DNA of 64,000 nucleotides from Lama guanicoe (Eukaryota): the NCBI GenBank assembly GCA_013239625.1, contig MU053606.1, forward strand, positions 124,001-188,000, read 5' to 3'. Shown here in pieces: positions 3,645-62,273 of this stretch. The position numbers were made by a program, and so were the translations under genes. The notes under the pieces are model-generated. The model saw only the letters and a program-made list of their open reading frames with translations. It was not told the origin of the DNA and ran no database searches. Each line of letters begins with the position of its first letter. The stretch's first letter is position 1.

Positions 3645-3895
3645 ATGCAATGAACTGCTCATACTCAATGTCAGGGATGTTTCTGTTGAGACTTGGGAGG
3701 TCAAAGGAGTCGGACCAGGGAATCCAGACCTGGTTGATGTCGGGGCTCTGCCAGTGGTAGAGGTGGCCCCAAGGGGATAGCACCAGTACCGGCTCCTCCA
3801 TCTTCAGCAGGGTCTTCAGGAGGAAGGCAATGTGGATGCAGACGCCCCTATGGAGGCTGAAGCCCTCTGGAGGGTTGACGTCACACAGAAGGTAC
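3645..3895 (-). pseudogene. POFUT2: POFUT2-like duplicated exon 2 (protein O-fucosyltransferase 2), decayed
   Basis: Translates [83 protein letters not shown], versus recalled human [83 protein letters not shown]. 251 nt, with an upstream pyrimidine tract and donor GTGAG at 3644. Many R>H, R>W and T>M changes typical of CpG decay. Confidence 0.93.
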
Positions 3896-4164
3896 TTGGC
3901 AGGGAGCAAAGGAGAGCGGGTTTTCAGGGCCAGGCCTCTGCACAGGAATCCCAGCTTAGATAGAACAGATACAACAGGAATCCCTGCACAGCCCATGGCC
4001 TAGACACCAGACACATTCAGCAGCTTCTGGTTTGTAAAGTGGAGGCACTGCCCACCCATCTCCATGTGGCCAATTACTTCAAATCCAGGAGCAGTTGCGG
4101 AAGACATCTTGGCATCCGTCTGACACCTCTAAGCACCTGACTATCACCTGAGCACCCGTTTTCC

Positions 4165-4632
4165 GGGGGCTCTCAAGCTTCTTGTTCTACACAACCCTGT
4201 AACTCTTAACAATTGCTGAGAACTCCAAAAGGCTGCTATTTATGTGAGTTAAATCTATCAATATTTCCTGTGTTAGAAGTTAAATAAGAAGTTAGAAAAA
4301 GTGTATGAATTCACTTGAAAATATTAACAATCTACTGTATGTTACCATTAATACTCAAACAAAATATAATTCTATTTTTCAAAACAAAAACCATTAGTGA
4401 GAAGAATAGCAGTGATTTTAATTTCTACAAATCTCTTTTGGACTGGTGAGAGCTGAATTCTCCTATCTGTCTCTGCATTCCCTGTTTTGTGATATCACAG
4501 GCCAGGTTTTCCCTGGAAAACCCCACAGGAACTCGGGAGAGCAAGAGTGTGCAAAAGGCAGATGACATCCCGGCGTTTCTATGAAAATGGTCTTGCACCT
4601 CAGGGGTCTTGGATACACTTTGATAACTGCTG
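4165..4632. mobile_element. hAT-Charlie DNA transposon fossil (Charlie1a/1b-like) inside the POFUT2-copy intron 1
   Basis: Matches recalled Charlie1 motifs: ttagtgagaagaatagcagtg...aaatctcttt, tctgcattc, and terminal cacactttgataactgctg. Confidence 0.7.
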
Positions 4633-5287
4633 CCCTATCCTAGGCGAGACTTTTCTACACAAGAGCCAGCCAAGGGTCCTGGATTCTGTAATGAGTTACC
4701 GCCACCAGACTCCTCCTTTCTCTGTGTGTTTCTCACAACCTCCATTACTGCAGATGAGGATGTAATCCTCAGCTGGGGCCTCTAATCCCAGAAGACTGCT
4801 AACTTCAAGAGAGAGGGTCCCATCTACCATCCCTACACCCCGCATAGTTTATTTTGAGTCAAGCCCTAGATAACTGCTTATCAGCACTGACCCTTTTATC
4901 TTATTCCTGAGGTTGACTGAAGGAACCAACATCTGGATGGAACTGAAATTTCCCTGCAGATAAACAAGGCTGATAAAGCACTCCATTCCAACATCTGATT
5001 CTGGGGCTTTTCAAAGCCCGGATAAGGCCCCGCTTCATCTAAGATGGGTCCTCTGCCTGCCCTTCCTGGGGGGTTCTGGGAGGCCGCGGCCACCAAAGGC
5101 GACCCAGACTCGCAGCCCCAGCCCCAGGGCCTGAGGGGGAGGAAAGCTTGAGGCTGTGCCAAAGCCCTGCCCCTCCCCGCCCCAATACGCTCCCCGGCAC
5201 CACAGCCCTCCCCGGCCACAACCCCAACCCTGATCCCACCCCGGTTCATGTCCACCGGCCCCGCCGACGGCGCGGACGTACGTTTAC

Positions 5288-5392
5288 TGTTTGTGGGACG
5301 CCGCCCCAGACAGGATGTCGGCCGCCGACTGACCTGCCAGAACTAGTCGCCCGGCCGAGCAAGCCGCCATCGCCAGCAGCAAGCACCGCCAT
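5288..5392 (-). pseudogene. POFUT2: POFUT2-like duplicated exon 1, with indels in the signal-peptide region
   Basis: Minus strand encodes GQSAADILSGAAS, matching the recalled POFUT2 N-terminus. ATG in good Kozak context (gccATGg) at 5392-5390; donor GT at 5287-5286. Confidence 0.88.
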
Positions 5393-5471
5393 GGTCCCTG
5401 GCAGCTACACACTTCCGGAGCCCGCTCCCAGCTCCAGAAAAGCAGGCCGGTCCGCGCGGAGCGCGGCGCCT

Positions 5472-5485
5472 GTAACCATGGCAAC
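5472..5485. promoter_or_regulatory. RFX X-box motif
   Basis: GTAACCATGGCAAC fits the X-box consensus GTNRCCATGGYAAC. Confidence 0.7.
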
Positions 5486-7492
5486 GCTGCGGGGCCCTCC
5501 CCTAGCGCTTGCGTCGTGCGTCCTCCCCAGTCTAGATGTGCGAGGGCAGAACTTGCGGAGCCAATGGGAGCCAGGGCGCGGCCAGGACGGGGGTGAGGGA
5601 AGGCTTATGGGACAGCTGGGCGAGGCCGGGGCGGGCTGGGCCGCGCGGAAGTTCTGACCGCAGGTGGGGCCGGCCGGAGGCTGGGGCGGTGGGCGGGGCA
5701 GCGGGGCGGGGGCACCCTCACCTGTCCGTGTGTGGGGATCAGCCTGGTCTCTGCAGCCTCCACTTGCACCGGACGTGGACCCAGGCTACCGGTGGGCAAG
5801 ATAGAGGACTGAGCCCAGGCACGCATGGCTGGCCAGGTAGGGCAGCTGAAGTGCACATCCGCCAGGCCCGCTGCCGGCCTTGAATACGCGCTGCTAGGCA
5901 GTTTCCAAGAAGACGGGATCTGTCATAAGAGGGGAGGTAGGGCTGGGGTGCCAGATGCCGTGTTGGGTGCAGTCTCACAGGAGAGCCACAGTGAGAGGGC
6001 GCAGAGCGGCCCCTGTGTTGGTGGGGCTAAGGGTTTGGGGTATAGGGTGGGGGTGGTGTGTGTCTTGCTCTGTGGTCTCCCCAAGAACCCTCACTCCAGA
6101 GCAAGGGGCTCTGCTCCCCCAACCCCTCACTGCACTCCCTGCCTTCCCCAGCACCACCTGGGGTGTGGTCATGTCGGGGCAGGGAAGGCCCAGGGAAGGG
6201 GCTCATTCAGAGGCAGGGGCCACTCTGCAGGGATGCTGGACCTGACAGTGATGCAGTGCTTTGGAACTCCCCTGGGCTGGGTTTCTAACCAGTGGGATGG
6301 AAGGGCCTTTCTTTCCTGGAGTGCAGTTGGGGGAACTAGATCCATCATGAATGTCAGCCCTGAAAATGGAGGCTGTGCTACATCCATTCTTGGAAAGAAA
6401 AATAAGGCCCCTTCAGCCCAGGTGACTCAGAAAGTCATTCAGCAATGTTCGGGGTCCCCAGTTTAGGCTTTCAATTAGAACTGAGCGGCTCAGGAGGCCA
6501 GATCCCTGTCCGTCGCTCTAGGAGCAGGCTTTCTGCTGGGGGACAGGATCCTTACAAACACCTGTGTCTTTGTGGGTCACTCCCCTCTGACAAGCTGGGA
6601 GGCAGGGTGCAGTTGCGGGAAATCATGTTTCCATGAGGAGAGGGCCACCAAGTGGTGGGGGCACAGGAGACAGTGAGAAAGAGTCCCGCAGCCTTTCTGG
6701 AATCAAAAAACTGGCAAATGTCAAAAAGTGCATAATTTGTTTTATTGAACAGACTGCTTATGTTCGTTTGGAGGGCCAGGTTCAAGGACTCTGCATCCCT
6801 CCAGGACAATAGCCTCAAGAGAAGAACAGACAGAGCAGGAGGAGATGTGGGGTTTCTCCCAGAAATGAGGCAGAACAGGGATTTCTGCAGATTTGCAAGG
6901 AGACCCCGACCACTGAGCATGGTGTTACAACCCCACGTGGCCCCTGTCATATTTGGCTTGGGCTCTGGGTCTGGCCTGATCATGTATTCTTCCAGCTGAG
7001 TTCCAGAAACTCAGAGGGTAGACTTAGAGAGGCTGTGTTTGGAACCCGGTGTGGAGACGGAGGGTCCTTTATCCTGAGTCCCCTCAGCCTAATCACTGTA
7101 GCTGAATTCCAACACCACCCAGGCCCCCAGGGTGGCTGTGGAGGGAGAGCAAGCCTGGCAGGTGACCCAGGGGTCCCACTGCTGTGCCCCTCTATTATCT
7201 TTGTTCCCTTTCACCCCGGAAGGTGTGATTGTCTCATGTCATGGTGACAAGCTATCTCTTTTCTCTCTCAGGTGGTGTCCCCACCCCCGCTCATCCTTCT
7301 CTCTGCATGGATGCTGAAGGACCAGGCTCACTTGAAGTTCTGAGCTTGAGCAGTAAGGTGGAAACAAAGAAACAAGTCATTGTGGCAAAGCTCCCCACCA
7401 CAGAGAAGCTGCCCTGAGTGGAAGGGAGGGTGTGGGCATGCCCATTTGTTTCCTGTCTCCCAGTGCTCTTCACTTTCTTATTGCAGACCTGC

Positions 7493-7571
7493 ATGGTTAC
7501 AACAAAATGATCTGCAAAACTGAAAATATTTACTCTCTGGCTTTTACAGAAAAGGCTGACCAGCCTCTGGT
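7493..7571. mobile_element. MER58-like hAT terminal fragment
   Basis: ctgcaaaactgaaaatatttactctctggcttttacagaaaagg...cctctggt. Confidence 0.55.
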
Positions 7572-9807
7572 TCCCTTACCAGTCAAGTGATGGGAGTACT
7601 TTTCCAGTATGGAAACATTTGGGCAGGCCCAGGTTTGCAAAATTCTTTAAGAGTAGTTACAGAGTTTTGCTTCTAAACATTTTTATGGCTGTATACTTCT
7701 GAGCTGAGGTTGTGCTGTGTAATTCTGAGCCAGGATTTTCTCAAAATGCTTCTCATTTCTTCTACTGGACACCTCTAAATTCCAAGGGGAATGGGATGTT
7801 AAGGAAGCCATGGAGTTTAGGAAAAAGATACAGATTTCATTTCCATTTAAGCATCGATGTATCTCCATCCTAGGCAGTATCGGTTCTGCGGTATTGATAG
7901 GGGAACTAATAGCAACCAAATTTATAGAAAATAGTGGGTCATTGGGTACACAAGTTCTTCTTTTCAACATTTTTGTAGTGTTTGCAGTTTAAGATGACCA
8001 TTCCTGAGAAACAGGCAGCCTCTTAGAATGAAATAGCATTTTCCCTGAACCATACTCAATTTTTATTTCATAGACAGCAGGAAGGGCAATCACACACCCA
8101 ATGTTTGGGGACCTCAAAGGTAAAGTGTAACCTTCTGAGAGCACACTCTCCCCATCTCCCTCTGCTCTTTTCACTGTCCCATTGTCTCTGAAGGCTCTTT
8201 TGTATCTTCTGCTCATGACTCCAGTAACTCTTCCTCCTCTTTCCTCAGCTGGTAAGTTTACTTGTCTACTTTGACCAAACAAACTGAAGCCAACAGAAGA
8301 GAACTTTCACCAGCAACTCCCAGGACATCCGCTCGCCTTCTGATGTCTGTGACCTCACTCTCGCTGCCCCACCTCTTATTACAGGTGACATCAAAAGCCA
8401 GATCATCCAAAAGTCACCAGGGGGCCCATCCATCCAATCTTCTCCGGGCTGTCACTCCCACATCCATACTCTCTGTCACTATCTCATCTATCTTGTTCTC
8501 CTGCTAGTTGGCTCCTATTAGTATATGAAAGTCCATCCACTTAAAAGAAACAAACAGCACTCCTTGACCCTAATTCGCCCCCACCAATTGCCACCCCATG
8601 TCTTTCCAGCAAATCTTTAATGAGTAGTTTAAACTCACTGTCTGCATATTCTCTTGAGCCATCCCCTTTTGCACCCACTCTGGCTTTTCCCCTGATCCCT
8701 CGCTGTATGGAAACTGCTCTGTCAAGACCATCAGTGACCCCACATTGCTAAATATGGTGGTCAGTTTTTAGTCTTCATCATGTGTGGCCCTTTGGCAGCA
8801 TTTGACCCAGCTCTTCCATCCCACCTCCCCTGTGTTCCTGCTTTACTTGGCCTCCAGCCCATCGCTCTGCTTTCGATCCACTGGCTGGTCTTTTGCCAAT
8901 ATCTCCTCTTTTTTCCAAACATTTACACAAATGTGCCCCAGAGTTGGGTCCTGGGTCTCTCCACTATCTATCTGCTATACCTTTAGTGGAAGCAACCAGA
9001 CTTGGAAATTGACATGCCATCAATTTCTCGATTTGTCCAAAACTCCCTGATTGGCCCTTTCCATTTGGAACTCTCTCCCTGATGCTCATATTCTTTTTCT
9101 TTCATTCTTCTTGCTTTCACATTCATACATATGTTCTACTGTGTAAATTACTTTTCCAAATTTTGAATCAGTCCATACATATCATGTAAAATGCTCAGAT
9201 CTCTGTTATTTCCACTAAGATGCTTATTCTACCTTAGAACCTTTCTGCATTTCTGTATTTATGTCAATAAAGTGAATAGTATTTCTACAAGCCTCATAGT
9301 TAAACAGTGTGTTTGTTTGGGGCTATTATGTAAAATGAAATAATGATACATCAACATAGTCCTTTTTCATTTAATTTTACGTAACACCAAGATGAGGTTT
9401 TTGCACTGAAGACTGGTTTTATTGAAATTTTACCTACATTATGGACAGTCAGTTTATGTGAAAGCCCTCATTTCTCCCCTTTTCTGATATATTTTCCATT
9501 TGGCTATTATAACATACCTTGGCATGAAATAAAATTCCAAATTCATTCACATAATAAAATTAATACATTTAAATTATATTTTTTAATGTTAAAAAGAAAG
9601 AAAAAAAACAACCCCAGACTCCTCTACCTATTAGGCATTTCTGTGGCAATATCTAATAGATTCCTTAACCATGATATTGAAGAACTGAGCTGATTCCAGC
9701 CTCTTTCCACCTGCTCAGCCCCATCTTGTCCCATCCCCTGTGGATGGAGAGGACATCCATCCCATTTTCCAGATCCAGATGTTGGAACCATGTTCTTTCT
9801 CTCTCTT

Positions 9808-9813
<6 letters not shown>

Positions 9814-9862
<49 letters not shown>
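9814..9862. repeat. (CA)n microsatellite, about 24 units
   Basis: Direct observation. Confidence 0.98.
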
Positions 9863-9863
<1 letters not shown>

Positions 9864-10048
9864 CAAATCCAGCTTGTTAGAAAATTCTGGCTAGTCTGAA
9901 TTCATCAACCACCTACTCCCTGTTCCCCACCCTCCTAGGAGCCACCTTCAGCCCCTCTTGGACACCAAATAGCCTCCTTCTTCCATCTTTCCTTTTCTAC
10001 AATCTCATCCACACAGAGTCAGAGGGAACCTATGAAAGCATACGTTGA

Positions 10049-10169
10049 GGGGGTGGGTGTAGCTCAGTGATAGTGTGTATGCTTAGCATGCATGAGATCC
10101 TGGGTTCGAACCACAGCACCTTCACTAAAATAAATAAATTACCCTCCCCCCCAAAAAAACAAAACAAAA
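10049..10169 (+). mobile_element. tRNA-derived SINE, vic-1-like (camelid)
   Basis: A-box tagctcagtgat, B-box gggttcgaacc, A-rich tail, imperfect target-site duplication aaagcatacgttg / aaagcataaattg. Confidence 0.85.
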
Positions 10170-13100
10170 GCATAAATTGGACATCACCCATCCCATCAAA
10201 ACTCACTAAAAGGGTCACCATTCCATTAGGAGCCAAAGTCGTCCCAAAGTCTTCCAGGACCCGGCATGCATTGCCTCTCCGCCCACACTCTCCCCATCAC
10301 TCTGGGGGCCTCTGGCTCTGGCTCTTCCTTCTCCCTCCAGATCTATTCTGCTTCAAGTTCATTACTCCATGAGATCTGCCAGGATTGCCTTATTCTCTCC
10401 TGCCTGTCTCCCACCCCACCACCATCATCTGAGTTTGCTCATATCACTCTTATTTTTCCCCAAGCTCTTGCTACCCCCATGTTGCCTGTTTTCTCTGCTA
10501 AAACTCTGAGCCCCCAGTGATGGGGAGTCATGTCTATTTTGTTGACTAATAAAGCCCAAGAGCCTTGGGAATGGGTATAGTTACTAGATTCCCATATGTA
10601 GCAGGAGCTTATACAGATTTGCTGAATGAATGCAGAGGTCCTGGTCCAATCCGATGGAGCACTTCTGTGTCCTGCTCAAAGAATAACTCTCCTTTCCTCC
10701 TGAGAGGATGACCACTTCTTGGTGATCAAAGGCAAGATCTATTTTCTTTATGCTGTTAACCTTAGGTGGGGAGACTGGGGAATCTTCATTTATATTTTAA
10801 AATTTGATTCACTCTGCAGTTTGTCTTCTATGTATCCTTTTGAGAAACCTTTTACGAGTGATCATTCTTCCATCAGATTGAACAGGATCCAGGGGGAAGT
10901 ACCAAGCCTGAAGTGTGGAGGCGAGAGGTCAGGTCCTCTGTATTCTTCCTGAGTGCCCTGGCCTTATCCATTCCCCCAGCCGCCTCTGGGCAGCCAAGCC
11001 CAGGAGCTGGGCCACTGGCAATTGTGCTAATCAATAATCCACCTCACCCAAAGTCCAGGGGTAGGAGCAGCCAGCACAACTGGTTGTAGACTCTGGAGTC
11101 AGGTCCTTGGAGGAATTCCTCACTGAACAATGTTTTGGACCTTTTATTTTTCTCTATAGCCTCCAGCTGAAGAAACAAATTGCCTTAGATACATGAAAGG
11201 TGAGAACACCTTCTATCCCCATGGAGCCCAGGTGGGGCTGGGAGTCTGCTGTTTGTACAGCCGGTGGGCTCGTGTTGCTTTGGGCATCCCTGTGCCTGAA
11301 TTCCTGCAGTACACTCGGTGGTAAGAACGGGGGTGCCTGGCAGGGAGGGAAGCGGGTCGGGAGACTGCACAGCTGGGGAGATGTTAACCTGGGGTGAGTG
11401 GGAGCCGACTGATGCATGGAATCTCAGTGCAGGGAACTCTCCACACTCAGAGAGGTTCCCACTCCTGCAGGGTCCCTTTGATCAGGGTGCTGGGCTATCA
11501 GCACAGCAGGGTCCCTGTGAGGATCATGGTGCCTTCAGGCAGTGGGAAGTAAGGGGTCCAGTGGCAGTTAAATTAACTGTGCACCCAAAGCCAACCCCCG
11601 TCTCTTTCAGCCTGTTTCCTAATCTGCAAAACTGGAATGATGTTAACCATCCTGCAGGTTTGTTGATGGGCTGGGACACACTAGACAGCCAGGAGCTGGA
11701 ATTCCTCTGTGCCCTGATTGTTATCCTTCCTTCCCACTATTTACTCTCACAAGCTCAGTCTCTCTGTCTCTCTCTCATTCACTTGTAACTTTCTCTCCTG
11801 CTGTGGTTTCATTTGATTCCCACCGTCCTCCCAATCCCCAGATGAGTGAAGTTAATTTTTGTGTGTCAGTTCCAAATTCCCAGGAAAGATGCTCTGTCCC
11901 CTCTGGATTGGTTGTCCAACCCATCAGTTGCAGCCAGAGGAGTGAGTCCCTCTGTGACCAGTGGAGGGGATCTGCCCAGCCCCCCAGCCACCACTGTGGG
12001 AGCACATAGCTCTCCCAGGAGGAGGTACTGGCTGTGACTTGGTGTCACTAAGTGTGAATTTGTGTCTCCTCTTGCCCCACCTACATCCTCCTAAACAAAG
12101 ATGAAAATTAAACACTCCCGAGATTTGTGACATAGAACACTCAGGGTGGGGGCTAAGAGGGCTGGATTCCCTGCTGAGTGTAAGGGGCTACAGTGACTCC
12201 CCAACGAGAGCCTGTAAAGGGAACAGCACCGGCCCCACTGGACACTTAGGGCACTGAGCCTGCGTGACATTGAGCCAGGCTTCTGACCACAGCTCAGGGG
12301 TCTGGTCCGATCGGTTAGTCTTTGAAACCAACCAGCTTTGGATTCCTCAATCCCTCCCTGAGGTTTTACCTGAACCACCAGCTTCTGTATCTTTGAAGAC
12401 AGATGATGAGGACCCTTCACATAAGGCATTTGCTCAGCCCTGTGCGGGAATTTGTGCTGCACGGTCTGCCCGGCGAGCTGACCAAAGTTGGTATTTTACT
12501 GATCTTAGAAATAGTCTGGTTTCCTGATGCACTGTTTCACTGAACAAGCAACAGAAGCCATCTCTGGCTGATAAAAGCAAAAATGGAACTTAATGAAAAG
12601 ATACTGGAAGGGTGCATGTAGTGGCCTGGATCAGAGCTGACCCGGGGGCCATAGGAGATGTTGGGGAGCCCCAGGCACCAGGCTGGGCAGGGTGCTACCA
12701 GGCCCCCTGCTGCCCCAGCAGGGACCCCCCTCCTCCTGACACTCCACCTCACTGCAGGTTCATGTCCTGGCAGGGCCAGGTCACACTGAAGCCACCAGCA
12801 CACACCTCAATGGGGGAGTTGGCCCCATCTCAGCTGAGGGCACGCCTGGTGTGGGGAGAGGCCCAGTTAGAGGAAGACAGTTCTCCTACTGTTCTGAGTT
12901 AATGTGCAAGTCAGTACCCATCACTCAGGAGAGCCAGGCTGGTCGGACCTCATTGTGGTGACTAGGCTGTCTGAGTTCACTTATTACTTTTTAGGTTGGA
13001 AGGCCCAAGAGGGAGAAAAAGTGGAGGTTCTAGTACTTATTTTATATTTCCCATGTACCAGGTATAGTAAGCAAGCCACTTCAGACAAGGCCCAGAACAA

Positions 13101-13299
13101 CCATATAAATAGTCCATGGAGCAAGTCGTGCAGTCAGGCCTCTGCAGCCCCGAAACCCGTGTCCTCATCAGCTCCGTATTTACCAGTGGAAGTTGTAGGG
13201 ATTTATGGGACTGTGTGCTCCTGTGGGGGCTGAGATGTGTGTGTTTAAATCCACATCTTCAGAAACTCAGCTAGAACCACAGCCACTGATTGTCTGCAT

Positions 13300-15062: not shown

Positions 15063-15099
15063 TCAGGCACGTGGCCAGGATTAGAAGGCAAGTGCACAT

Positions 15100-16945: not shown

Positions 16946-17019
16946 ATGCAGCCCAAGGTCTTGGCTCTCCCCTGGGGAGGGGAAGAACTCTCTTGTTCTC
17001 CTTTGTCTTTATTCTTCAG

Positions 17020-20925: not shown

Positions 20926-20929
20926 TTCC

Positions 20930-51309: not shown

Positions 51310-51540
51310 CTAAGTTAACTTTTGTTGAGCACCAAAAATGTGCTACATTCTTTTCTGAGCATTTTACAGAAATGAATCCTTCAATCTTCACAAGTGAGTA
51401 TGGAAGGTTCGATTGTTATCCCAGGATTACAATGTGGAAATTGTGGCACACAGAGGGTAAGTAAGCTGGCCAAGGTCACAGAACTAGTAAGCAGCAGAGC
51501 TGGGATTTAAACCCTGGCTGTCTGGTTTCCAGGCTCCCAG
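51310..51540 (-). mobile_element. MIR (other MIRs near 34860-35040, 48140-48390, 50300-50490, 52700-52880, 57660-57845)
   Basis: ggaaattgtggcacacagagggtaagtaagctggccaaggtcacagaactagtaagcagcagagctgggatttaaaccc. Confidence 0.8.
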
Positions 51541-52954: not shown

Positions 52955-53052
52955 ACTTATTTTTATTTATTTTTTGGAAGTACTGGGGACTGAAGGCAGG
53001 ACATTGTGCATGCTAAGCAGGTGCTCTACAACTGAGTAATACACACCCTCCT
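52955..53052 (-). mobile_element. tRNA-derived SINE, vic-1-like
   Basis: ggaagtactggggactgaaggcaggacattgtgcatgctaagcaggtgctctacaactgag. Confidence 0.75.
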
Positions 53053-53913
53053 TGTCTGCACTTGAAAATAAATATTGCAATACACAAAATAGCTCTTAAA
53101 CACCATCATGGGACCTAGTCTCTGTATAGACAAATGAACATGTATGCTAATTCAATAAGAATAAATGTTGTTGGGACATACATTTCTGAATCTGTTAATG
53201 TGCTTAAAAACTATCATAGCTAGTGATAAACATGAGTCTTGGATCCAGTACGTCTTAAGGTCTGCTTTGCATCATGGGAAATTACATTCTACAAAGAAGG
53301 CTAATTGGGTCTCTTTGATATTTGGATGGTTTAGCAGATGACCAAGGCTTTCAAAAGCTGACAGTTTTGTATTTTAAACTAACTACAAATTATCTTCTAG
53401 TAGATGGAAGTCCTAAGCTTGTGAAGTGCCCAGTAATCCAGGGGGTATGTCTTTGTCTGTGTGAACATCTGTGTGTGTGATTTCAGGAAGGTAGAAATAA
53501 GTTCCATATAGACTTCTAATTCCTTTCTCCTCCAGCTCAATGTGTAGGCATATATTTACACAAATAAATTGATATTCTTTTATCATTTGGCATATTGGTG
53601 GGAATAAGAGGTTCTCATACTTGTTTCAGAAAGGTTGGGGAGCATGAGCTTAGAAAATGGGAAGAGAAAGAGGCAGGGAGGCACTTCACACTTTGTGCAT
53701 GATATGAGAAGCAGTAGCTTTTCTTTTCTCTTTTCTTCTAAAGCAAACTGGCACTGAATTGTAACCTACTATTACTCAGAATTGCTTTTCTGATCAGAAA
53801 CAAGTGCCTCAGATTTTTCAAGGCAACATGAATGATGAAATGTGTTTTAGCAGTTATCTTTAAAAGTAGTTTTATTTTTCAAGTAAAAGGCTATAGCCTG
53901 TTCTTTCTTCCAG

Positions 53914-53940
53914 CGGTACAAGAAATTCTCATTGATCTAT
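53914..53940 (+). pseudogene. TRAPPC9: TRAPPC9-like 27-nt microexon (exon 5)
   Basis: ttctttcttccag|CGGTACAAGAAATTCTCATTGATCTAT|gtacat encodes VQEILIDL, versus recalled human AQEVLIDP. Correct length and order between exons 3 and 6. Confidence 0.82.
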
Positions 53941-55139
53941 GTACATGATCTATGTGCTTAGTTTCTTTGGGTTTTTTTTGTTTTTTAAGTGCTTGCTTCA
54001 TTGTGGTGTGAATGAATGTTTAAAATTTCTGGATTTTGATCTTTAGAACATGCTGATTTATCAGAACTGTTAAAAACCTTATTGTGCTTTGGTCCTCGTT
54101 TGGTGGGGCACCCTATTGATTTCTGTTGTCTGTTAAAGAGGGAAATTCTTCCTCTAGCCTGCAGATAATTAAGTGAATGGTTTGCAGTGTGCCTTTAAAA
54201 TTCTTTGAATGCATTGAGCATGTTTGTCCAGTGAAATTTTAATTGACTCATAGTAATGACTTTGATTTGGTTCTGTGGCTTTTGCTCCTCTCCACAAGAA
54301 TTTGAATTCTCTGTTACATTTTGTACACGTGCTCCTAACAGGGGATGAAATTTTGCGTTTTTCACAAGGGTGGGTTTTCCTATCCCCTCTGAATACCTTC
54401 CATAATTGATACAATAAAAATCTGTTATTGCAGTGCTTAATTATTTCATAAACTATTTTTTGGCTAAATCAGAAACAATGACAAAGAGTGATAATAAAAA
54501 AATAAGAAAACCTTCCTTTGAAGAATAGGAATCAGGTGGTCAGGCTCACTTATGCTTTGTGCCTGACACACTTACTCTCATATCATTGTGTATCATGATT
54601 CGGGGATGGAGTTGCATCAGGTTTATAGATTTCTGTTTTAACATTTGTATTGAATTCTTTCTTCAGGCTGATGTTTCCTGTTGGGTTTGTGGAAAGTGTA
54701 GAAGAGAAACAAATGCTTTGTTTTGTATTCAGGAGGCCTGAGTTGCTGATGAGGAAAGAGCTCAGGGTGGGCTGAGGAACAGAGTGACACTCCCTCTCTT
54801 CCTGGCTGAAATTGATGAACAATGAAATCAGTTAAGTGCATCGGTATTTGACCAATTGAAGTTAGTGAGCCCAAACTGCATAGATATGCCCAAAGGAAAG
54901 TACTGAATTCACTTGCAGAATTAGATGCTTTACCAAGTAGAAGCAGCTTAGAGCAATCAGAAAAATCAGTCTTATGATGAGATATAAAAAGAATACAATA
55001 TCTTTTATTTCTGAAACTTTTCTACGTTAAGTTGTGTAGAGCTAAAATTAAGTTTCAAGCATCAGGAGTTAACAGTGTGGGTGGTTCTGTATGATCATTA
55101 TTCACGGATGTGCCTAGACCATTCTAGAGTGGCTGAAGC

Positions 55140-55805
55140 TGACAAGAAAAGACCCAGAGCCAGGATTTGTCATCCTAGGGTGTCCTCCATAATGGTTCCA
55201 TGTGGGAGCCCATGACTGGGTTAACAAATTATAACAGACCCCAACGGCCTGTGAACTTTAAGAAGAAAAATTATGCTTAGTAACTGCTTTGTAATCAGGT
55301 GCCTGTGCATCCTCACTCCTATCTCCTTGCCTTATATAGTAGAGACAGTGGTTTGCTTGCATAGTTGAGGTTTTAGATAGCACTCTGCTGTTTGCAAAGC
55401 AAGGACCCAGGCCCTCAGCTGTAAATGCTGGGCTTGTGTGCAGTTAGATAGTCTATTATCCCCAAAACAAGGACCTGGCTTGTCTGGTGGTCTGCCTTGT
55501 AATTCACATATCTAAAAATATATCTTGTTCCCCTCACCCCATGACTTTCCTAAAGATACACTAAGCCTTTGTAGTCATTGTGGGTTCTACAATCTCTGTC
55601 TCATCCCTTCTTTCCCCAAGCTCCTGCTTACTATCACAAAACTGTTAATGACTTTCTCCTTTGATTATACACAATAAATATGGGAGTATTTGAGAGGCTC
55701 ATGGAGTTGGCTCCCTACTCCCTCTCGATTTCTTGACTTTTTCCAAAGAGTCTTGAATAATCATTCCATGTCAGTAAGACTTCTGCCAGCCAGAACCCAC
55801 ATTAC
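55140..55805 (+). mobile_element. Possible solo LTR
   Basis: LTR-like composition with AATAAA at ~55673 and U5-like end gccagccagaacccaca; family not recognised. Confidence 0.35.
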
Positions 55806-56574
55806 CAGGTGCGAAGAATGCAGGCTTTATCTCTCCTACCCAAGGGAGAGAGAGAAGAGAATTGAGATCTGCTCCCCCATGGTCCCTTCCTGCCCCAGGG
55901 CCACACCAGTTCACCTGCAGCCTTCTGGCCTCTGCTCTCAGGGCCTCTGTCCCAGGACTGAACACAGCCTTTTCTTACCTTGTCAACATTTCCTGTGCCT
56001 TTCAGAAGTCGGTCTCTTCTCTGCAATACAGCCCTGGCAGATGTTATGGTGGTCAGAGTGCTGGTGAGCTGTCCCTTGTGGACACCCAGGATCCATGCTG
56101 ATTCTCCTGAGTCATTTGGGATTACAGAACTGTCAAGCACCAGAGGATGCCCATTCACGTGAGGTCAACACAGCATTGCATCACTTTCATTATATTTTTG
56201 AATTTTCAGTGGAGAAGTTATTTGCAGCAAACTGTTCCAGATATTCAGCCACATGCTTTCATCACCACCATTTCCTTGTTGGTTCTGGTGCTTGTTTTAA
56301 GAACCAGGTTTCTTCTCTGGTCATGTCTAGCAGCTGGGCTTGCCCAATCCTTGATCTGCATTTGAAGCAGAATGCTTCTTCTTGATGTCAAACTGATTTT
56401 CGTATTTCTGAATATTTCGTGTACACTCAGCAACAGTTTCAAGTGAAATGCTCTTTTCTAATTTTGGTGAACTCACATTTGCTGATCTCCTGCTTTCATG
56501 CTGTGGGCAGGTTCTTCTTCCTATAATAAAAGTTAGTAATTTTATTTACTATGGGAAGGTACTGGCCCGAGGTA

Positions 56575-57625
56575 CTTTTGTTCTTAACAGTTTTTATACA
56601 ATTCACCCATTAAAATGTACAGTGGATTTTACTCTATGCCCAGAATTGTGCATCCCATTCAATCTTAGAACATTTTCATCCCCCCAACAGGAAGCCCCGT
56701 ATGCATAAGCAGTCATTCTCATCTTCCCCATCCTCCCCCAGCCCCAAGGAGTGACTCTTCTCTCTCTGTGAGTTTGCCTGTGCTGGACATTTCATGTAAA
56801 TTGAGTCATTTCATGTAAATGGAACCGTCTATTGTGAATGACTTCTTTCACACTGAGTAATGTTTTCAATGTTTGTTCACGTTGTGGCCTAGGTCAGTAT
56901 TCTATGCTTTGCTTTTGCTGAATAATATTCCACTGTATGGCTGGGCCCCTCTGTTTACCATTCATCAGGTGATAGGCATTTGGGTTGTTCCTGCTTTTTG
57001 GCTGTGTTGAGTAGTGTCGCCGTGAACACTCTTATGGGATTTTTTTATGTGGATATTTGTTTTCTGTTCTCTTACTTGTGTGCCCAGAGAGCAGAATTGC
57101 TGGGTTACTTTCAAGCCAAATATTCAACTCTCTGAGTATCTTCCAGGCTGTTTTCCAAAGTGGTCATGCTGTGTTACATCCTCACCAGCAAGGGCTGTGA
57201 GCTCTGCTTCATCTGTGTCCTCATTAGTTCTTGTTACTCTTTCTTTGATTATAACCTATTGTAGTGAGTGTGAAGTGGTTTCTCCTAGTGGTTTTGACTT
57301 GATTTCCCTCACAGCTAATGATATTGAACATCGTTTCATTGTGCTTATTGGCCATTTGTATATTGTACTTGAAAAATACATTTTCAGATCCTTTACTCAC
57401 TTTTTAATTGAGTTGCCTTTTTATTGTTGAGTTGTAGGAGTTTTTTTTTTCATTTAGAGATACAAATTCCTAATCAGATAAATGATTTCAAAAACTTTCC
57501 TCCTGCGTGCTTTTTTTTTTCACTTTCTGGATGGTTCCATTTGAAGCATAGTTTTAAATTTTGATGAACTCCAATTTAACTCTGTTTTCTTTGTTCCTTG
57601 TGCTTTTGGGGTAATATTTAAATCT
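56575..57625 (-). mobile_element. L1MB-type 3' portion
   Basis: aattcacccattaaaatgtacag...ttagaacattttcatcccccc...ctggacatttcatgtaaat...ttattggccatttgtatat. Confidence 0.88.
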
Positions 57626-58498
57626 GAGGCATTTTATTTAAACTTTTATATATAAAATAACTTAATTTGTAGGACTGTTCTAGGAGATGGGTGCTGTTGT
57701 TTTCCCCAGGCTATGGATAGGAGATTGAGATGCAGAAAATTTCACTGACATATCAGTGTCACAGCTACCCAGTGCTGTTGGAGTTCAAACCCTCATGTCT
57801 TTCCCCAGAATCTGTGCTCTTCACAACCATGCTCCACTACTGCCTGAAATCGTTAATGAAAACGTCTTTCCTTTTTTAATTTCTTGTTAGTTTGTTTTCT
57901 CATTGTGGACCTCATTTCCTCATTTTCCTTGCAAAGATCAGTGTAGATTTATTTTAGGCCTTATGTAGGCAGAAGCATTGCTATCAGTTAACTTCTTTAT
58001 TACTCACTCTCCAGTGATGATTGTTGCTAGTTGACCTAATCAAGTCATGTCTTGATAAGTCTTTCCTGCTCATGACACTAAAAACAGTCATGACTTACAG
58101 AATGCTCAAAGAAGAAAGTACTTGATTGATTTTATTTTGCTAACCAATCAAACGTATCAAGTAAAAACCCCAGAGTTGACACAGATTATAAGCTCTCCAG
58201 AATAGGGTCACTGTCTTACTTGTGTTTCATTTGTTTAGTCACAGTGTCTGGATAGTGCCTTCCTGTCCAGAAGTTTTGTGAGGATACGGTGCTCATGAAT
58301 CATTGTAAGGACAGAATTTTGACAACAGACTGTGTTGTTCATTTCATGAGAGAAAAGATAATATAGAAATACTGCTCAGATCTATATTAAAATTTAGCTT
58401 GGAATTTTGAAAAGAGTTCAAGAAACCATACAAAGATCTTTTTCACTAATTTTAGATCTATCTTAGACACATTATTGTTACATAGCAGAGTAACTTAC

Positions 58499-58701
58499 CA
58501 AGTAGATTTGACAAGAGGAGTGTATTATTGATTATTTGTTTTAGTTGAAATATTCTACCTGGGATAAAGTAATCAGTGCTTATAAATGAACAAATATATT
58601 ATCAAGTAGATTTGACAAGAGGAGTGTATTATTGATTATTTGTTTTAGTTGAAATATTCTACCTGGGATAAAGTAATCAGTGCCTATAAATGAACAAATA
58701 T
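58499..58701. repeat. Near-perfect direct tandem duplication, period 104 bp
   Basis: caagtagatttgacaagaggag...tgaacaaatat at 58499-58597 and 58603-58701, with one mismatch (gctt/gcct). Confidence 0.95.
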
Positions 58702-59349
58702 GTTTGTATTTCTATGCAACATGGAAGTAGACTTCATATGTTTCTATATAATATATATGACCGTGTGTTTTAATCTGTTTTTCAGTGTTTTCATATTTTG
58801 CAGCAATGTTGTAACTTTAGAATTCTTCTAAGAAATTCACCCCCGATTCTAGTGCAGCTTGTACTGTGTATCCTGTCTTATGCATGGTATTCCACTGTCC
58901 ACTCAGTGAGGAATTTCCTTTCCTATTGATTTAGTAACAGAGTTAAAGGAACTGTGATTTCTAGGCCTTTGCTCTCCATGTGTTTGCAGTTGGCTGTCAA
59001 TCATGATTTTCCCTTTCTTGAGTTTCCATTGTTGAATTAGAATTTTTGAAAATAACTATTAATATGTTGCATTGGTCTCCCTAGAAACTTAATGTGTTTG
59101 TGCTTTTCAGTTTTCAATTTATGAAAAATGTTAATGCACTCTTGTTTTTAACTAGTCCTTTTCCACTAGATATTTATTTACCTCTTTAAAGTTAAAATAT
59201 TTTTTCTCAATGAATGAATCAGTTTGCATATTTTAAAAGTTACTTTAATTTTTATTTTTCTTACTGTAAGTTATATTCATTGTAGAGAATTTAGAAAATT
59301 AGGATAAACACAATAATAACAATAATGGCCTCTAATCTCACCTCGAGAT

Positions 59350-59680
59350 ACAGTTGTAAGGTTTGAAATTGAGAAATACAAGTCCTCTCATATTGTTCTT
59401 CTTTCTCAAGTACGTTTTGGTTACTAAGACCCTTGAATTCCCATATGAATTGTAGCAGCAGCTAGTCAGTTTCTGCAGAGGAGCCCGCTGGGATTGTGAT
59501 CGAGATCACGTTGAATATACGGATCGTTCTGGGTAGCGCTGCCATTCCAAGAGCGCTGTCATTCCAAGAGTGCTGTATTATGATCCAGTAATCTGTGTGG
59601 TATGTCTGTCCAGGTATTTAGGTCTTCTTTAATTTTTTTCAAAAATGCGTTCAGTTTACATTGTATTATTTTACCTTTTT
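59350..59680 (-). mobile_element. L1 ORF2 fragment
   Basis: ttgttcttctttctcaag...ccttgaattcccatatgaatt...gtcagtttctgcag...tatttaggtcttctttaattt. Confidence 0.7.
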
Positions 59681-62085
59681 TTTGCCTTTACACTGAAGAC
59701 AATTGTGCAAGGTACTGGGATCAGTAGTGTATTTCAGCCCCACCACTTGCTGCCACCATGGATGCTGCGCTCTTGCTTTGCCCTCTGTACAGTCTTGCAC
59801 AAAATAGGACATCAGTAACTCTCTTGAATGAATTATTATGTGATTGTTGGATAATGCTTGAGAGTCCTTGTGATGATGTCTTTTTCCCAGCCTTTCCCCT
59901 CTTCTTAACTATGCCCTTTCTCTTCCTTTCCTCCAGCCTGGGTTTCAGCCTGCCTGTGGCCTTGATTTTCCCTGTCTATAGACTCTTCCTTTCCCTAGTT
60001 CATGATAATGTTACATGTGGGCTGTGGAAACTTGCTAGATGTCAAGAAAGAGCCAATCAATTGCATGCTACTATTTTTAGACTGTGGTATTCTTTTATCG
60101 ATTGAAATTAAATCAGGCTGAACCCCTGAGCCCGCCCGTGAGCTCTTTTCACCTTCCTACAGTTGATACTGCTCTGGTTGCTGCATGTGCCCTTCCCCGA
60201 ATCTTGGTCTTGGGGTTAAGTCACTATCGGTTGAACACGAGTGTTAAAAGATGAAGAGAACATTTGCTCCTTCTCCCTGGTTGGGGACTTGGATAAGATG
60301 AGGTACCAGATAAAGAATGGAGCCCAACCTCATTCTGACCCCTGCTCTTTCTGTTCTTTCTCCAGGGGAAAAGAGTAGAATTCAACAGTATAAAGATCGA
60401 TTGTGAACTAATGAGATAGACAAGAAAACTGAACATTTATTAAATATCCTTTCATGCCAGAAACAAACGTATTATACACACAAAAAGCACATAAACTATG
60501 GTAGTACTGTGGTTACAAACGTGGGTCCGAGTTTGAGTCCTGCTCTGGAGTGACAAGTCCTGTGAGATGGAGAACTTGTAGGTTGGCTTAGCCTCTCCCG
60601 GACTTGTTTTCTGTCCTGCAGAGACGGGGCTCGCTAGGCATCCCTCCCCCGTAGAGGTGCTGTGGGGTGTAAATGATGCACGTGGGCAGCCCGTGCACAG
60701 CTGCTTGTTCCTGTAAGTGCAGGATAGCATAGCTTTTGCGGTGATGGCTTTATGACCGCCCCGTGTAGACTCTCAGTGCTCTGAAGGGATGCCTTGTGGC
60801 TTGGAGATGGGACTCTCACTTCTATAAATACCCAAGAATTGTGTTATTGGGCTCTGCTGATTTGAATCTATTCTTTAGAAAGTACATATTGTAGATATAT
60901 TTTTCAAGCATGCATGCTTTTTTCTTTTATTGTTTATAATTCTACACTATCATCTCTTGGTGTGACTTTTTATGGAATCCAGGAAACAGTCCTAAGCTAC
61001 CTGCCCCTTCACACTTCTTCGTGGTGGTTTTCTTCCCTTACTAGAAGAGGGTTTTGCATAGGAAATTTTCTTTGTTCCCCTTTTCTTGGAGTCTGTCTGT
61101 CTGCCCATCTATCACCTGTCCATTTGCCCATTTCTCTACCCACTCATTCTTCTTAATTGTTCCAAGAAGCATTTCAGGCAGCTTACAGAACAGATACCAA
61201 ATAAACAGGTGAGAAAATGGGGCCAAGTTCAGACAGTGAGGCTAGGAGGCAAGCCTGTGTGAGGGTTGCAGACATGAGACACACACCTCTGCCCTGTGAC
61301 TTATAAGGTCGAGAGCAAGTGTGTGCCTGATGCTCCCAGCAGAGACAGGGAAACAGGGTTTGTGGGAGATGCTCACTGGCTGTGAAATAAATAAGTGGCT
61401 TAGGAGAAGCCCAACCTTTCCAGCTACTAAGACTTAGGAGAATATTTTGAGTGTCTTCCAAAATCAGAGTATTGCATCTTTTCTTTTGTGAGAGTTCTAC
61501 GAATAGTTGGTTACATTCTAAACCTGGAAATTTCTCCAAAACTGCTTCCCACGTGAGTCCCATGGCTCAGGAATGGGATGGCTCTGCTCATTGATGGGTG
61601 TTGGCCAGAAACAGAAAATGATGGCCTCAAAGGTGCCTGGGATTTTTCAGTTATATTTTGTCAGTGCTGTAGATTTCAGAAAATGCTTTCACAGTTTCTC
61701 TCCATCTGAGGCGGCAGCGTACTCTGTTACCAGCATCAGGAGCTCAGGGCCACGGGATGGTGGGGGCTGACTGCACTGCCGTCAAGACAGATAAGGTAGT
61801 CACTTCAGGCGTAGTGCTTTTATGTAGTGCATTTCATGTTCTTTAATAGAAGTTTTCAACAGGGAGTTAATTAACTGAGTTAATTAACATTTAATAAATA
61901 TGATGCTTTTTTGAAAAGACAGTTATAGGCAGAATATAAGCCATGAAAACTTTAAAAATGGTTTCATTACTGAAATTTCAGTAGGGAAGATACGCAGTTT
62001 ATCTTATTTATGCCTATCTTTTAAAGTAACAAAGAAACAAGAGAAAAAGCAGAGGATGATTTCTGTTCTTCCTCTCGGCTTGCAG

Positions 62086-62273
62086 GTGCCCTCACCTCCA
62101 GTGGCATCCATGCAGACATCAGCACTGAAACTGGCCGTGCTCAGAAATGCCTCAGCCCTGAAGACACAACTGACAAATAAGGACATCAGCACTGAAACTG
62201 GCCATGCTCAGAACTGCCTCAGCCCTGAAGACACAACTGACAAATAGAAGGGGGCCACGCCCTGTTACAGCAG
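62086..62273 (+). pseudogene. TRAPPC9: TRAPPC9-like exon 6, with an internal 67-bp duplication, stop codons and a lost donor
   Basis: ttcttcctctcggcttgcag| (G)ALTSSGIHADISTETGRAQKCLSPEDTTDK*, versus recalled human [41 protein letters not shown]. 62115-62179 is repeated at 62182-62246. Ends tgttacagcag|atgct, with no GT. Confidence 0.88.

What the first reader, a model, noticed from the sequence alone, without database searches (positions are those of the whole stretch)
3645..62273. Duplication hub: intron-containing fragments of three unlinked genes (POFUT2, MRAP2, TRAPPC9) within 60 kb
Seen in sequence: exon copies with introns, splice sites and old intronic repeats, so these are DNA-level duplications rather than retrocopies, and all are disabled. 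Established: in human the parents lie on 21q22 (POFUT2), 6q14 (MRAP2) and 8q24 (TRAPPC9). Inference: this site repeatedly accepted segmental duplications. Each piece sits beside promoter-like or poly(A) modules, which is raw material for chimeric transcription units.
Basis: partly seen in the sequence, partly recalled or inferred. Interest (0 to 1): 0.8.

Follow-up and report, generated by a model that had tools for sequence, protein, structure and literature searches.

The report
Amplified camelid three-gene pseudogene mosaic
This window is one decayed copy of a large patchwork of intron-containing pieces of POFUT2, MRAP2 and TRAPPC9 that occurs dozens of times in this camel-family genome; it is a known kind of structure at an unusual scale, is transcribed and spliced at least in part, and likely misleads camel gene-mapping studies.

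Summary
The window carries DNA-level, intron-containing, disabled pieces of three genes:
- POFUT2: promoter to intron 2, window 2044-7438, minus strand.
- MRAP2: last intron, last exon and about 10 kb downstream, 16953-29257.
- TRAPPC9: promoter onwards, 31635 to the window end and at least 30 kb beyond.

Intact parents lie on three other contigs, at K2P 0.17-0.20 from the window.

The interpretation needs correcting. This is not a single site that kept accepting duplications. The whole mosaic, junctions included, is one unit of a high-copy block:
- At least 84 TRAPPC9 first-coding-exon copies on 69 contigs, about 56 POFUT2 loci and about 37 MRAP2 loci.
- More than 100 kb collinear with another contig at 86-92% identity.
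- TRAPPC9 tracts often repeat head to tail about every 60 kb.

All 50 sampled TRAPPC9 copies share four founder deletions. The exon diverges as fast as its introns, so it looks neutral. RNA-library contigs from 4 runs (3 studies) show a GT..AG exon 1 to exon 2 splice. Named truncated relatives are all camelid.

A fourth segment (13260-16953) and an isolated partial copy with the same junction were also found. The scan found this mosaic before, in another genome and on another piece of this genome. It is a new member of a known kind, of moderate interest.

The parts
1479..1781 (.). Assembly gap (run of N) inside the amplified block
   Evidence: X runs in the ORF list. The C3610 alignment breaks at 1478/1782.
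2044..7438 (-). POFUT2-derived segment: part of intron 2 (with an old L1 fragment also present in the parent), exon 2, intron 1, exon 1, promoter CpG island and upstream DNA
   Evidence: blastn to the parent C1971 in three collinear pieces: 2044-5552, 5704-6158 and 6159-7438. K2P 0.196 over 4568 sites.
3646..3897 (-). POFUT2 exon 2 (aa 44-127 of camel POFUT2). The frame is open, but the acceptor is AG>AA in this copy only (1 of 7 copies compared).
5269..5407 (-). POFUT2 exon 1 remnant. The ATG is kept. There are deletions of 14 and 11 nt and an in-frame TAG. The two deletions are in 6 of 6 copies that cover it; the TAG is in 5 of those 6 (TAT in L010).
4901..6000 (.). CpG-island-like stretch, the former POFUT2 promoter (GC 0.66, o/e 0.63)
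7438..13260 (.). Amplified tract of unknown origin. No Pfam domain and no single-copy parent were found. It contains a tRNA-derived SINE at 10053-10124.
   Evidence: 77 six-frame matches to the ORF at 11300-11785, of 100 candidates scored, all on contigs that carry other pieces of the block or 38 or on short contigs. 0 of 90 ORFs reached a Pfam cut-off. Rfam tRNA hit.
13260..16953 (+). Fourth segment: GC-rich, internally repetitive DNA homologous to C2563:11.7009-11.7054 Mb. Its CpG content has decayed (o/e 0.39).
16953..29257 (+). MRAP2-derived segment: 1.8 kb of the last intron, the last exon with 3' UTR, and about 10 kb downstream. It is interrupted by a 2.3-kb insertion at 24329-26635.
   Evidence: blastn to the parent C4240. 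K2P 0.167 over 9762 sites.
18747..19138 (+). MRAP2 last coding exon (aa 77-206). Acceptor and stop codon are kept. There is a 3-nt deletion and a frameshifting 1-nt deletion.
29257..31635 (.). Linker of unknown origin, with an inverted repeat (30378-30608 / 31040-31275)
31635..64000 (+). TRAPPC9-derived segment, from the promoter onwards. It runs off the window and continues to at least C1266:217,998. In all it is at least 62 kb, matching 55 kb of the parent.
   Evidence: K2P 0.195 over 27734 sites.
32101..33000 (+). CpG-island-like stretch, the former TRAPPC9 promoter and first exon(s). Splice donors used in RNA contigs lie at 32203 and 32855/32856.
   Evidence: Camelid gene models also use 31.6-32.8 kb exons.
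36882..37458 (+). TRAPPC9 first coding exon (aa 1-195). Acceptor, ATG (36895) and donor are kept. Deletions of 3, 12, 1 and 5 nt are shared by 50 of 50 copies. A TAG lies at 37249.
   Evidence: RNA joint 32856>36882.
45762..45872 (+). TRAPPC9 second coding exon remnant (aa 208-244), with 26 nt of deletions
46753..46761 (+). Site of a 3.07-kb deletion relative to the parent that removed the third coding exon. C3610 shares it.
62085..62274 (+). TRAPPC9 fourth coding exon remnant (aa 291-336), with a 67-bp tandem duplication at 62115-62246

Best explanation
The window is one decayed unit of a high-copy mosaic segmental duplication found only in camelids. It was likely built once, early in the camel family, by juxtaposing genomic pieces of POFUT2, MRAP2, TRAPPC9 and at least one more locus, and was then likely multiplied as a block.

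Shown:
- The pieces are collinear with intact parents through introns.
- The entire mosaic, with identical junctions, recurs on many contigs.
- Founder lesions are shared by all sampled copies.
- The TRAPPC9 tract is the most abundant part and often repeats head to tail about every 60 kb.
- On the three multi-megabase scaffolds that hold arrays, the arrays sit at the scaffold end.
- The TRAPPC9 exon diverges as fast as its introns.
- RNA contigs at 95% likeness or more join a first exon in the TRAPPC9-derived CpG island to the first coding exon at GT..AG sites.

Inferred:
- The founder mosaic arose by duplicative transposition into one acceptor region on the camelid stem.
- Amplification ran by unequal crossing-over between tandem units, plus dispersal to several chromosomes, largely before camels and alpacas split.
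- The copies are non-coding relics whose inherited promoters still fire.
For: Parents and intron collinearity.

Distances from parent to window: 0.196 for POFUT2, 0.167 for MRAP2, 0.195 for TRAPPC9.

Copy number:
- A 28-mer of the TRAPPC9 exon, allowing up to 3 mismatches, gives 84 matches against 0 for the reversed control. By my hand count they lie on 69 contigs.
- The six-frame search had 533 candidates, of which 100 were scored. One is the parent and the rest are copies.
- POFUT2 exon 2: 56 loci including the window, with 119 of 120 candidates scored.
- MRAP2 last exon: about 37 loci, with 73 of 73 candidates scored.

Mosaic repeated as a unit:
- 10 contigs carry the POFUT2 and TRAPPC9 pieces 34-40 kb apart in the window's orientation.
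- Window 6-62837 aligns to C3610 in collinear pieces of 86-92% identity across all six junctions.
- The flanks extend the block to about 105 kb.

Tandem period: 8 of 12 same-strand neighbouring pairs are 60-68 kb apart (positions).

Founder lesions:
- Four deletions are present in 50 of 50 TRAPPC9 copies.
- Two POFUT2 exon 1 deletions are present in 6 of 6 copies.

Neutrality:
- Among copies, the exon has K2P 0.139 against 0.128 and 0.132 for the flanking introns.
- 31 of 50 copies have a stop or frameshift within the first 97 codons.
- 1 of 50 copies has an ORF of 236 aa or more.

Scaffold ends: C6476 in its last 440 kb of 43.36 Mb, C2129 in its last 250 kb of 7.87 Mb, C5183 in its last 155 kb of 3.76 Mb.

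Camelid-only and on several chromosomes:
- 14 of 14 'longer' hits are Camelus or Vicugna.
- 9 of 10 further representatives are Camelus or Vicugna. The tenth sits in a fish TRAPPC9 cluster.
- These proteins lie on sequences of many different chromosome-scale lengths.

Transcription: the joint 32856>36882 (GT..AG) is seen in 4 of 4 RNA runs from 3 studies.
Against: - The contigs are unnamed, so dispersal between chromosomes in this genome is only inferred from other camelids' annotation.
- Copy counts depend on a fragmented assembly (55,231 contigs) and could be inflated by uncollapsed haplotypes or deflated by collapse. Copies do differ by 8-19%.
- The order and number of founding events is not resolved. 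The MRAP2 distance is somewhat lower than the other two.
- The parents of 7438-13260 and 29257-31635 were not found.
- A crude dN/dS of 0.49 between the copies and their consensus is below 1. Taken alone it could hint at weak constraint.
- RNA contigs also cover the introns in all 30 bins. DNA carry-over in those libraries cannot be excluded, and the spliced contigs could come from sister copies 95-99% alike rather than from this one.
Confidence: 0.88

Rival explanations
1. One reading: a unique acceptor site that repeatedly took in independent segmental duplications of POFUT2, MRAP2 and TRAPPC9.
For: Three, in fact at least four, unlinked sources are juxtaposed, with distinct breakpoints. Some founder locus must once have done this.
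Against: This locus is not unique. All junctions recur in C3610 at 86-92% identity, and the pieces co-occur on 10 further contigs. Lesions are shared by 50 of 50 copies. The window's nearest sampled relative is at K2P 0.086, against about 0.2 to the parents, so this copy arose by copying the finished mosaic.
Confidence: 0.04
2. Assembly artefact: chimeric joins or haplotig over-duplication in a fragmented draft create an apparent mosaic and inflate its copy number.
For: The assembly has 55,231 contigs. Many copies sit on short contigs or at scaffold ends. There are N gaps inside the blocks.
Against: Copies differ by K2P 0.087-0.19, far above allelic divergence. Identical junctions occur in diverged copies. 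Independent annotations of four other camelid assemblies contain POFUT2-like, MRAP2-like and TRAPPC9-like truncated models. Spliced RNA contigs match at 95% or more.
Confidence: 0.03
3. A functional camelid-specific gene family: the TRAPPC9-derived promoter and first coding exon encode a new short protein kept by selection, as in primate core-duplicon genes.
For: - RefSeq-type models of 236-410 aa exist in Camelus and Vicugna.
- One copy here has a 249-aa ORF (L069).
- Transcripts are spliced.
- The promoter stays CpG-island-like.
- Crude dN/dS is 0.49.
Against: - The exon is not more conserved than its introns (0.139 against 0.128 and 0.132).
- 31 of 50 copies are broken within the first 97 codons.
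- Only 1 of 50 copies keeps a long ORF.
- All copies carry a founder double frameshift that replaces about 38 residues.
- The window's own copy has a stop at 37249.
Confidence: 0.07
4. Transposon-mediated gene capture (Helitron-like or Pack-type) carried the gene fragments around.
For: Multi-copy gene fragments from unlinked genes are what capture by rolling-circle elements produces. This is recalled from bat Helitron work and was not checked here.
Against: The units are collinear for more than 100 kb, with 12-kb to 60-kb-plus pieces of single genes. That is far larger than captured fragments. The arrays are tandem with a period of about 60 kb. No transposase or Rep/helicase ORF was seen in the ORFs scanned.
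Confidence: 0.01

Closest known systems
Primate mosaic segmental duplications and core duplicons (for example LCR16a/NPIP; Bailey and Eichler 2006, recalled and seen only as a reference inside PMC13751797)
   Same: - Juxtaposed genomic, intron-containing pieces from unlinked ancestral loci.
- Secondary amplification of the mosaic.
- One over-represented 'core', here the TRAPPC9 tract: at least 84 copies against 56 and 37.
- Dispersal to several chromosomes.
- Inherited promoters drive transcripts.
   Different: - A different lineage and different source genes.
- Copies are old: 8-19% apart, and parent to copy about 80% identity, below the usual 90% operational cut-off.
- Much of the family sits in head-to-tail arrays with a period of about 60 kb.
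- No sign of positive or purifying selection on the core ORF.
Pseudogene-rich repetitive blocks of alpaca chromosomes 11, 17 and 36 (PMC13751797; passages read)
   Same: - Multi-megabase camelid regions of repeated gene fragments, interpreted as segmental duplication followed by decay.
- A problem for assembly.
   Different: - That paper lists NEK10-like, ATF5, FMN2-like, uS3m-like, actin and ABHD17A-like fragments. The listing shows 0 occurrences of TRAPPC9 in it.
- It reports its blocks as absent from camel assemblies. This family has annotated members in Camelus as well as Vicugna.
Processed pseudogenes (retrocopies)
   Same: Disabled extra copies of POFUT2, MRAP2 and TRAPPC9 coding sequence.
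   Different: Introns, promoters and kilobases of flanking DNA are copied, so the route was DNA, not mRNA.
Ampliconic gene arrays of mammalian sex chromosomes (recalled)
   Same: Large units of tens of kb in tandem arrays. RNA was found in libraries labelled reproductive system.
   Different: Annotated relatives lie on many chromosome-scale sequences of different length. Open reading frames are not maintained.

Membership tests
DNA-level segmental duplication (as opposed to retrocopy) | Introns and non-coding flanks of the parent are copied collinearly | tested here: met
   The window aligns to the three parents through introns and flanks: 5.4 kb, 12.3 kb and more than 31.7 kb. The TRAPPC9 tract continues for 30 kb beyond the window.
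DNA-level segmental duplication (as opposed to retrocopy) | Operational threshold of at least 1 kb at 90% identity or more (recalled definition) | tested here: inconclusive
   Parent to copy is about 75-82% blastn identity, which is not met. Copy to copy is 86-92% over 66 kb with C3610 and up to 96% for the POFUT2 piece, so it is met for some pairs.
Mosaic / core-duplicon architecture | Segments from different ancestral loci are joined, and the join is propagated | tested here: met
   There are four source loci on four contigs. All junctions are shared with C3610. The seg4|MRAP2 junction is also present at C2563.
Mosaic / core-duplicon architecture | A core segment present in more copies than the flanking segments | tested here: met
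   TRAPPC9 at 84 or more, against 56 for POFUT2 and about 37 for MRAP2. The second unit in C3610 has the TRAPPC9 tract without the POFUT2 and MRAP2 parts.
Mosaic / core-duplicon architecture | Copies on several chromosomes | tested here: inconclusive
   G000 contigs are unnamed. Annotated relatives lie on sequences of at least 7 different chromosome-scale lengths in Vicugna and 4 in C. bactrianus. This is indirect.
Mosaic / core-duplicon architecture | The core encodes an expressed gene family under selection | tested here: not met
   The family is expressed and spliced. But the exon diverges like its introns, and 31 of 50 copies are broken early.
Tandem macro-repeat array | Head-to-tail copies at a regular period | tested here: met
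   8 of 12 same-strand neighbouring pairs are 60-68 kb apart. In C3610 the second TRAPPC9 tract starts within about 1 kb of the end of the first.
Transposon gene capture | Element-encoded protein or termini bounding each unit | tested here: not met
   Pfam scans of 90 window ORFs and 123 ORFs at C2563 found no transposase or Rep ORF, only an L1 reverse-transcriptase fragment and ankyrin repeats. Termini were not searched.

The most novel reading that the evidence does not exclude
The arrays are not inert. Dozens of inherited TRAPPC9 and POFUT2 CpG-island promoters stay unmethylated in the germline and drive broad, spliced transcription of the whole array in reproductive tissue. That would make the family a camelid-specific source of regulatory RNA (a piRNA-cluster-like or lncRNA array), or, from the few intact copies, of a truncated TRAPPC9 N-terminal protein able to interfere with the TRAPPII complex.
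Probability: 0.1. Interest if true: 0.65.

Novelty: new member of a known kind. Interest (0 to 1): 0.4.

Why it matters
The window is a clean non-primate example of two-step duplication, first mosaic assembly and then block amplification. Its scale is several megabases: at least 84 units of a tract about 60 kb long.

It has a practical cost. Two dromedary association studies list 'TRAPPC9' or 'TRAPPC9, POFUT2' as candidate genes at chr14:31.08-31.37 Mb (PMC10357240, passages read; PMC8027435, passages read). Two genes with unlinked parents named side by side is the signature of this mosaic. Those candidates are therefore likely pseudogene copies, and markers there are likely to map to many places. 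This is my inference; I could not inspect that annotation.

The arrays also coincide with scaffold ends, so they mark where camelid assemblies break.

Tried and rejected
- Pfam on the TRAPPC9 and MRAP2 ORFs gave nothing, because the families' models cover other parts of the proteins. PDB sequence search with the TRAPPC9 ORF also gave nothing.
ORF references were used instead. 0 of 90 window ORFs in 7.3-14.5 kb reached a curated cut-off, so the 'FN3-like' piece noted by another reader elsewhere was not seen here.
- The parent of 7438-13260 was not found. The six-frame search with ORF 11300-11785 hit only contigs that carry other pieces of the block or short contigs.
- The ~248-aa 'open_frame_aa' values first suggested conserved ORFs. 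Direct ORF calling showed most copies stop at 132 aa or earlier, so I rejected that idea.
- Window self-comparison found no large internal repeat, so the window holds less than one full period.
The exons after 37800, the POFUT2 and MRAP2 parts and a silent control stretch therefore remain unexamined in RNA. Intron cover in RNA libraries is not interpreted.
- Literature: no paper holds TRAPPC9 together with alpaca. TRAPPC9 with camels gave 5 papers and POFUT2 with camel gave 2. None of them describes the duplication, judging from listings, abstracts and the passages read. The two-of-three gene-name search gave only the GWAS paper for camelids. Supplements were not opened.
- Helitron-type capture was considered early, because of the high copy number and about 10% divergence. 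I dropped it once collinear blocks of more than 100 kb were seen.

Full report
**Where the window lies.** The window is G000:C1266:124001-188000, in a 2.05-Gb assembly of 55,231 contigs. The nearest proteins are from Camelus and Vicugna. One sister copy translates identically over 97 residues to a Vicugna pacos RefSeq model.

**The observation.**
- POFUT2. The ORF 3625-3999(-) matches Pfam O-FucT positions 1-78 and human POFUT2 (4ap5) residues 22-106 at E 1.8e-38. tblastn with camel POFUT2 places exon 2 at 3646-3897 and a degraded exon 1 near 5.3-5.4 kb.
- MRAP2. Only the last coding exon (aa 77-206) is present, at 18747-19135.
- TRAPPC9. A full-length TRAPPC9 representative (P0218, 1148 aa) places coding exons as follows:
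  - aa 1-195 at 36895-37458;
  - aa 208-244 at 45762-45872;
  - aa 291-336 at 62085-62274.

**DNA-level copies with intact parents elsewhere.** Six-frame searches of the own genome found one intact locus for each gene:
- TRAPPC9 first coding exon at C55226:31088503-31089090, 92% identical to P0218. Its only flagged 'stop' is the first intron codon.
- POFUT2 exons at C1971:2.697-2.7096 Mb, 89-98% identical for all but one weak match (46%), which with the aa 176-220 match is the only row with stops flagged.
- MRAP2's three coding exons at C4240:1.289-1.311 Mb.

blastn of the window against 110 kb fetched from these loci is collinear through introns and flanks:
- 2044-5552, 5704-6158 and 6159-7438 with POFUT2. 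This covers intron 2, exon 2, the 1.4-kb intron 1, exon 1, the promoter and upstream DNA.
- 16953-24329 and 26635-29257 with MRAP2. This covers the last intron, the last exon and about 10 kb downstream.
- Twelve pieces from 31635 to 63332 with TRAPPC9.

The TRAPPC9 homology continues beyond the window to at least C1266:217,998. There it still matches the parent, including the next two coding exons. The tract is at least 62 kb.

Kimura distances from window to parent are 0.196 (POFUT2), 0.167 (MRAP2) and 0.195 (TRAPPC9). Without CpG sites they are 0.167, 0.149 and 0.171.

**All three pieces are disabled.**
- POFUT2 exon 1 keeps its ATG but has deletions of 14 and 11 nt and an in-frame TAG. The two deletions are in 6 of 6 copies that cover the exon; the TAG is in 5 of those 6 (TAT in L010). 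The exon 2 acceptor is AG>AA only in this copy, 1 of 7. Exons 3 onward are absent from every copy.
- MRAP2 has a 1-nt deletion.
- TRAPPC9:
  - The first coding exon has deletions of 3, 12, 1 and 5 nt and a TAG at 37249.
  - The second coding exon has 26 nt of deletions.
  - The third was lost in a 3.07-kb deletion at 46753-46761.
  - The fourth carries a 67-bp tandem duplication.

**The central correction: the mosaic is itself a repeat.**
- A 451-bp TRAPPC9 piece found 40 scored matches, of 116 candidates, at 88-93% identity.
- A 451-bp POFUT2 piece found 40 scored matches, of 62 candidates, at 89-96% identity.
- On 10 contigs the two pieces lie 34-40 kb apart in the window's relative orientation. 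In the window they are 33 kb apart.
- A 28-mer from the TRAPPC9 exon, allowing up to 3 mismatches, matches 84 places against 0 for the reversed control. By my count these lie on 69 contigs.
- Six-frame searches in which nearly all candidates were scored give 56 POFUT2 exon 2 loci, about 37 MRAP2 last-exon loci, and some fifty-odd loci for two ORFs from the tracts between them.

Fetching 140 kb of C3610 and 60 kb of C1266 flanks showed the following:
- Window 6-62837 aligns collinearly to C3610:54.2-120.6 kb at 86-92% identity, across every junction.
- The homology extends on both sides. C1266:109.8-214.5 kb corresponds to C3610:40.1-147.8 kb.
- In C3610 a second TRAPPC9 tract, without the POFUT2 and MRAP2 parts, follows directly.
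- 8 of 12 same-strand neighbouring TRAPPC9 exons on one contig are 60-68 kb apart.

On the three multi-megabase scaffolds that hold arrays, the arrays lie at the scaffold end.

**One founder, then neutral decay.** I fetched 40 further copies of the TRAPPC9 exon with flanks. With those already held, 50 copies and the parent were aligned.
- The four deletions are present in 50 of 50 copies. The amplified founder was therefore already broken.
- Among copies the exon is no better conserved than its introns: median K2P 0.139 against 0.128 and 0.132.
- 31 of 50 copies have a stop or frameshift within the first 97 codons.
- Only 1 of 50 copies keeps an ORF of 236 aa or more.
- A crude Nei-Gojobori count gives dN/dS 0.49 against the family consensus. 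I do not read this as constraint, given the points above and the method's known bias with CpG-rich codons.

**A fourth segment and an early junction.** Window 13260-16953 is GC-rich and internally repetitive. It is homologous to C2563:11.7009-11.7054 Mb. That site lies inside a 25-Mb contig, next to ankyrin-repeat exons.

The same site continues into 1.8 kb of MRAP2 intron, starting at exactly the parental breakpoint used in the window. It stops just before the exon.

Distances in that part are:
- window to C3610: 0.090;
- window to C2563: 0.126;
- window to parent: 0.199;
- C2563 to parent: 0.182.

C2563 is thus either the ancestral acceptor site, later truncated, or an early dispersed fragment. 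The data do not decide between these.

**Distribution and age.** Truncated TRAPPC9-like, POFUT2-like and MRAP2-like models exist in C. ferus, C. bactrianus, C. dromedarius and V. pacos.
- 14 of 14 'longer' hits are from these species.
- 9 of 10 further representatives are from these species. The tenth sits in a fish TRAPPC9 cluster.
- The models lie on sequences of many chromosome-scale lengths.
- In a 97-column protein tree, two Camelus clades sit among different subfamilies of this genome, but support is weak.

With a generic mammalian neutral rate (recalled, about 2.2e-9 per site per year), the distances suggest founding roughly 40 million years ago or earlier, and amplification around 20-45 million years ago. 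That places both on the camelid stem and before the camel-alpaca split. This dating is inference.

**Transcription.** RNA-library contigs of 4 runs from 3 studies were laid on 31500-37800 at 95% likeness or more. The runs were found.
- A GT..AG joint 32856>36882 appears in 4 of 4 runs.
- Further joints run from 32203 and 32855 to 36879-36884, and within 32.8-33.6 kb.
- The acceptor is the native one of the TRAPPC9 first coding exon. The donors lie in the CpG-island-like stretch 32101-33000 (o/e 0.62).
- Introns are also covered, and no silent control could be laid, so only the splices count as evidence.
- The contigs may stem from sister copies 95-99% alike.

**Literature.**
- A 2026 paper describes 'pseudogene-rich repetitive blocks' on alpaca chromosomes 11, 17 and 36, made of other gene fragments, and reports them as absent from camel assemblies (PMC13751797, passages read).
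- No paper in the library couples TRAPPC9 with alpaca.
- Two dromedary GWAS papers name TRAPPC9, once together with POFUT2, at chr14:31.1-31.4 Mb. I infer that these are copies of this mosaic.

**Earlier notes of this scan.** Earlier notes describe the same mosaic in another camelid genome and on another piece of this genome. They also describe an amplified RALGDS-derived gene 14 kb left of the window. My own calls reproduce the first two. I did not test the third.

**Verdict.** The window is one unit of an old, high-copy, camelid-specific mosaic segmental duplication. It is a new member of a known kind.

Noticed in passing
window 36142-36563 and 10053-10124: Two tRNA-like matches (Rfam RF00005, 41 and 39 bits) lie at 36377-36447(-) and 10053-10124(+). 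They look like tRNA-derived SINEs. The first sits under a sharp peak of RNA-contig depth with many loose ends, as expected of a dispersed repeat.
   Followed up: partly
window 58495-58701 and 62115-62246: Two young local tandem duplications, of 104 bp x2 at 98% and 67 bp x2 at 96%. The second lies inside the TRAPPC9 fourth coding exon.
   Followed up: partly
window 16193-26467 versus C3610: The MRAP2 tract is 92.4% identical between the window and C3610, while the neighbouring tracts of the same two copies are 86-88%. This may reflect gene conversion or a lower local mutation rate in AT-rich DNA.
   Followed up: no
L086-L089 (G000:C2563:11.68-11.72 Mb): An isolated 5.5-kb partial copy (fourth segment plus MRAP2 intron, same junction) lies inside a 25-Mb contig. 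It sits beside minus-strand ankyrin-repeat exons and an L1 reverse-transcriptase fragment.
   Followed up: partly
G000:C7453:392.6-394.3 kb (L095) and C6476:42.92 Mb: These POFUT2 exon 1 plus exon 2 copies differ from the bulk of the family in still having a recognisable exon 1 (60-79% amino-acid identity). They may be older or separately derived duplicates.
   Followed up: no
window 4901-6000 and 32101-33000: Both inherited promoters still pass a CpG-island test (o/e 0.63 and 0.62, against 0.72 and 0.74 in the parents) despite about 20% divergence. The fourth segment has decayed to 0.39. This hints that the two promoters stay unmethylated in the germline.
   Followed up: partly
G000:C6074:25007-25573 (L069): This is the only one of 50 sampled TRAPPC9-exon copies with a long ATG-to-stop ORF (249 aa).
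   Followed up: no
window 24329-26635 and 35276-36865: Insertions of 2.3 kb and 1.6 kb relative to the MRAP2 and TRAPPC9 parents. C3610 shares both, so they predate the split of these two copies. Their nature was not determined.
   Followed up: no
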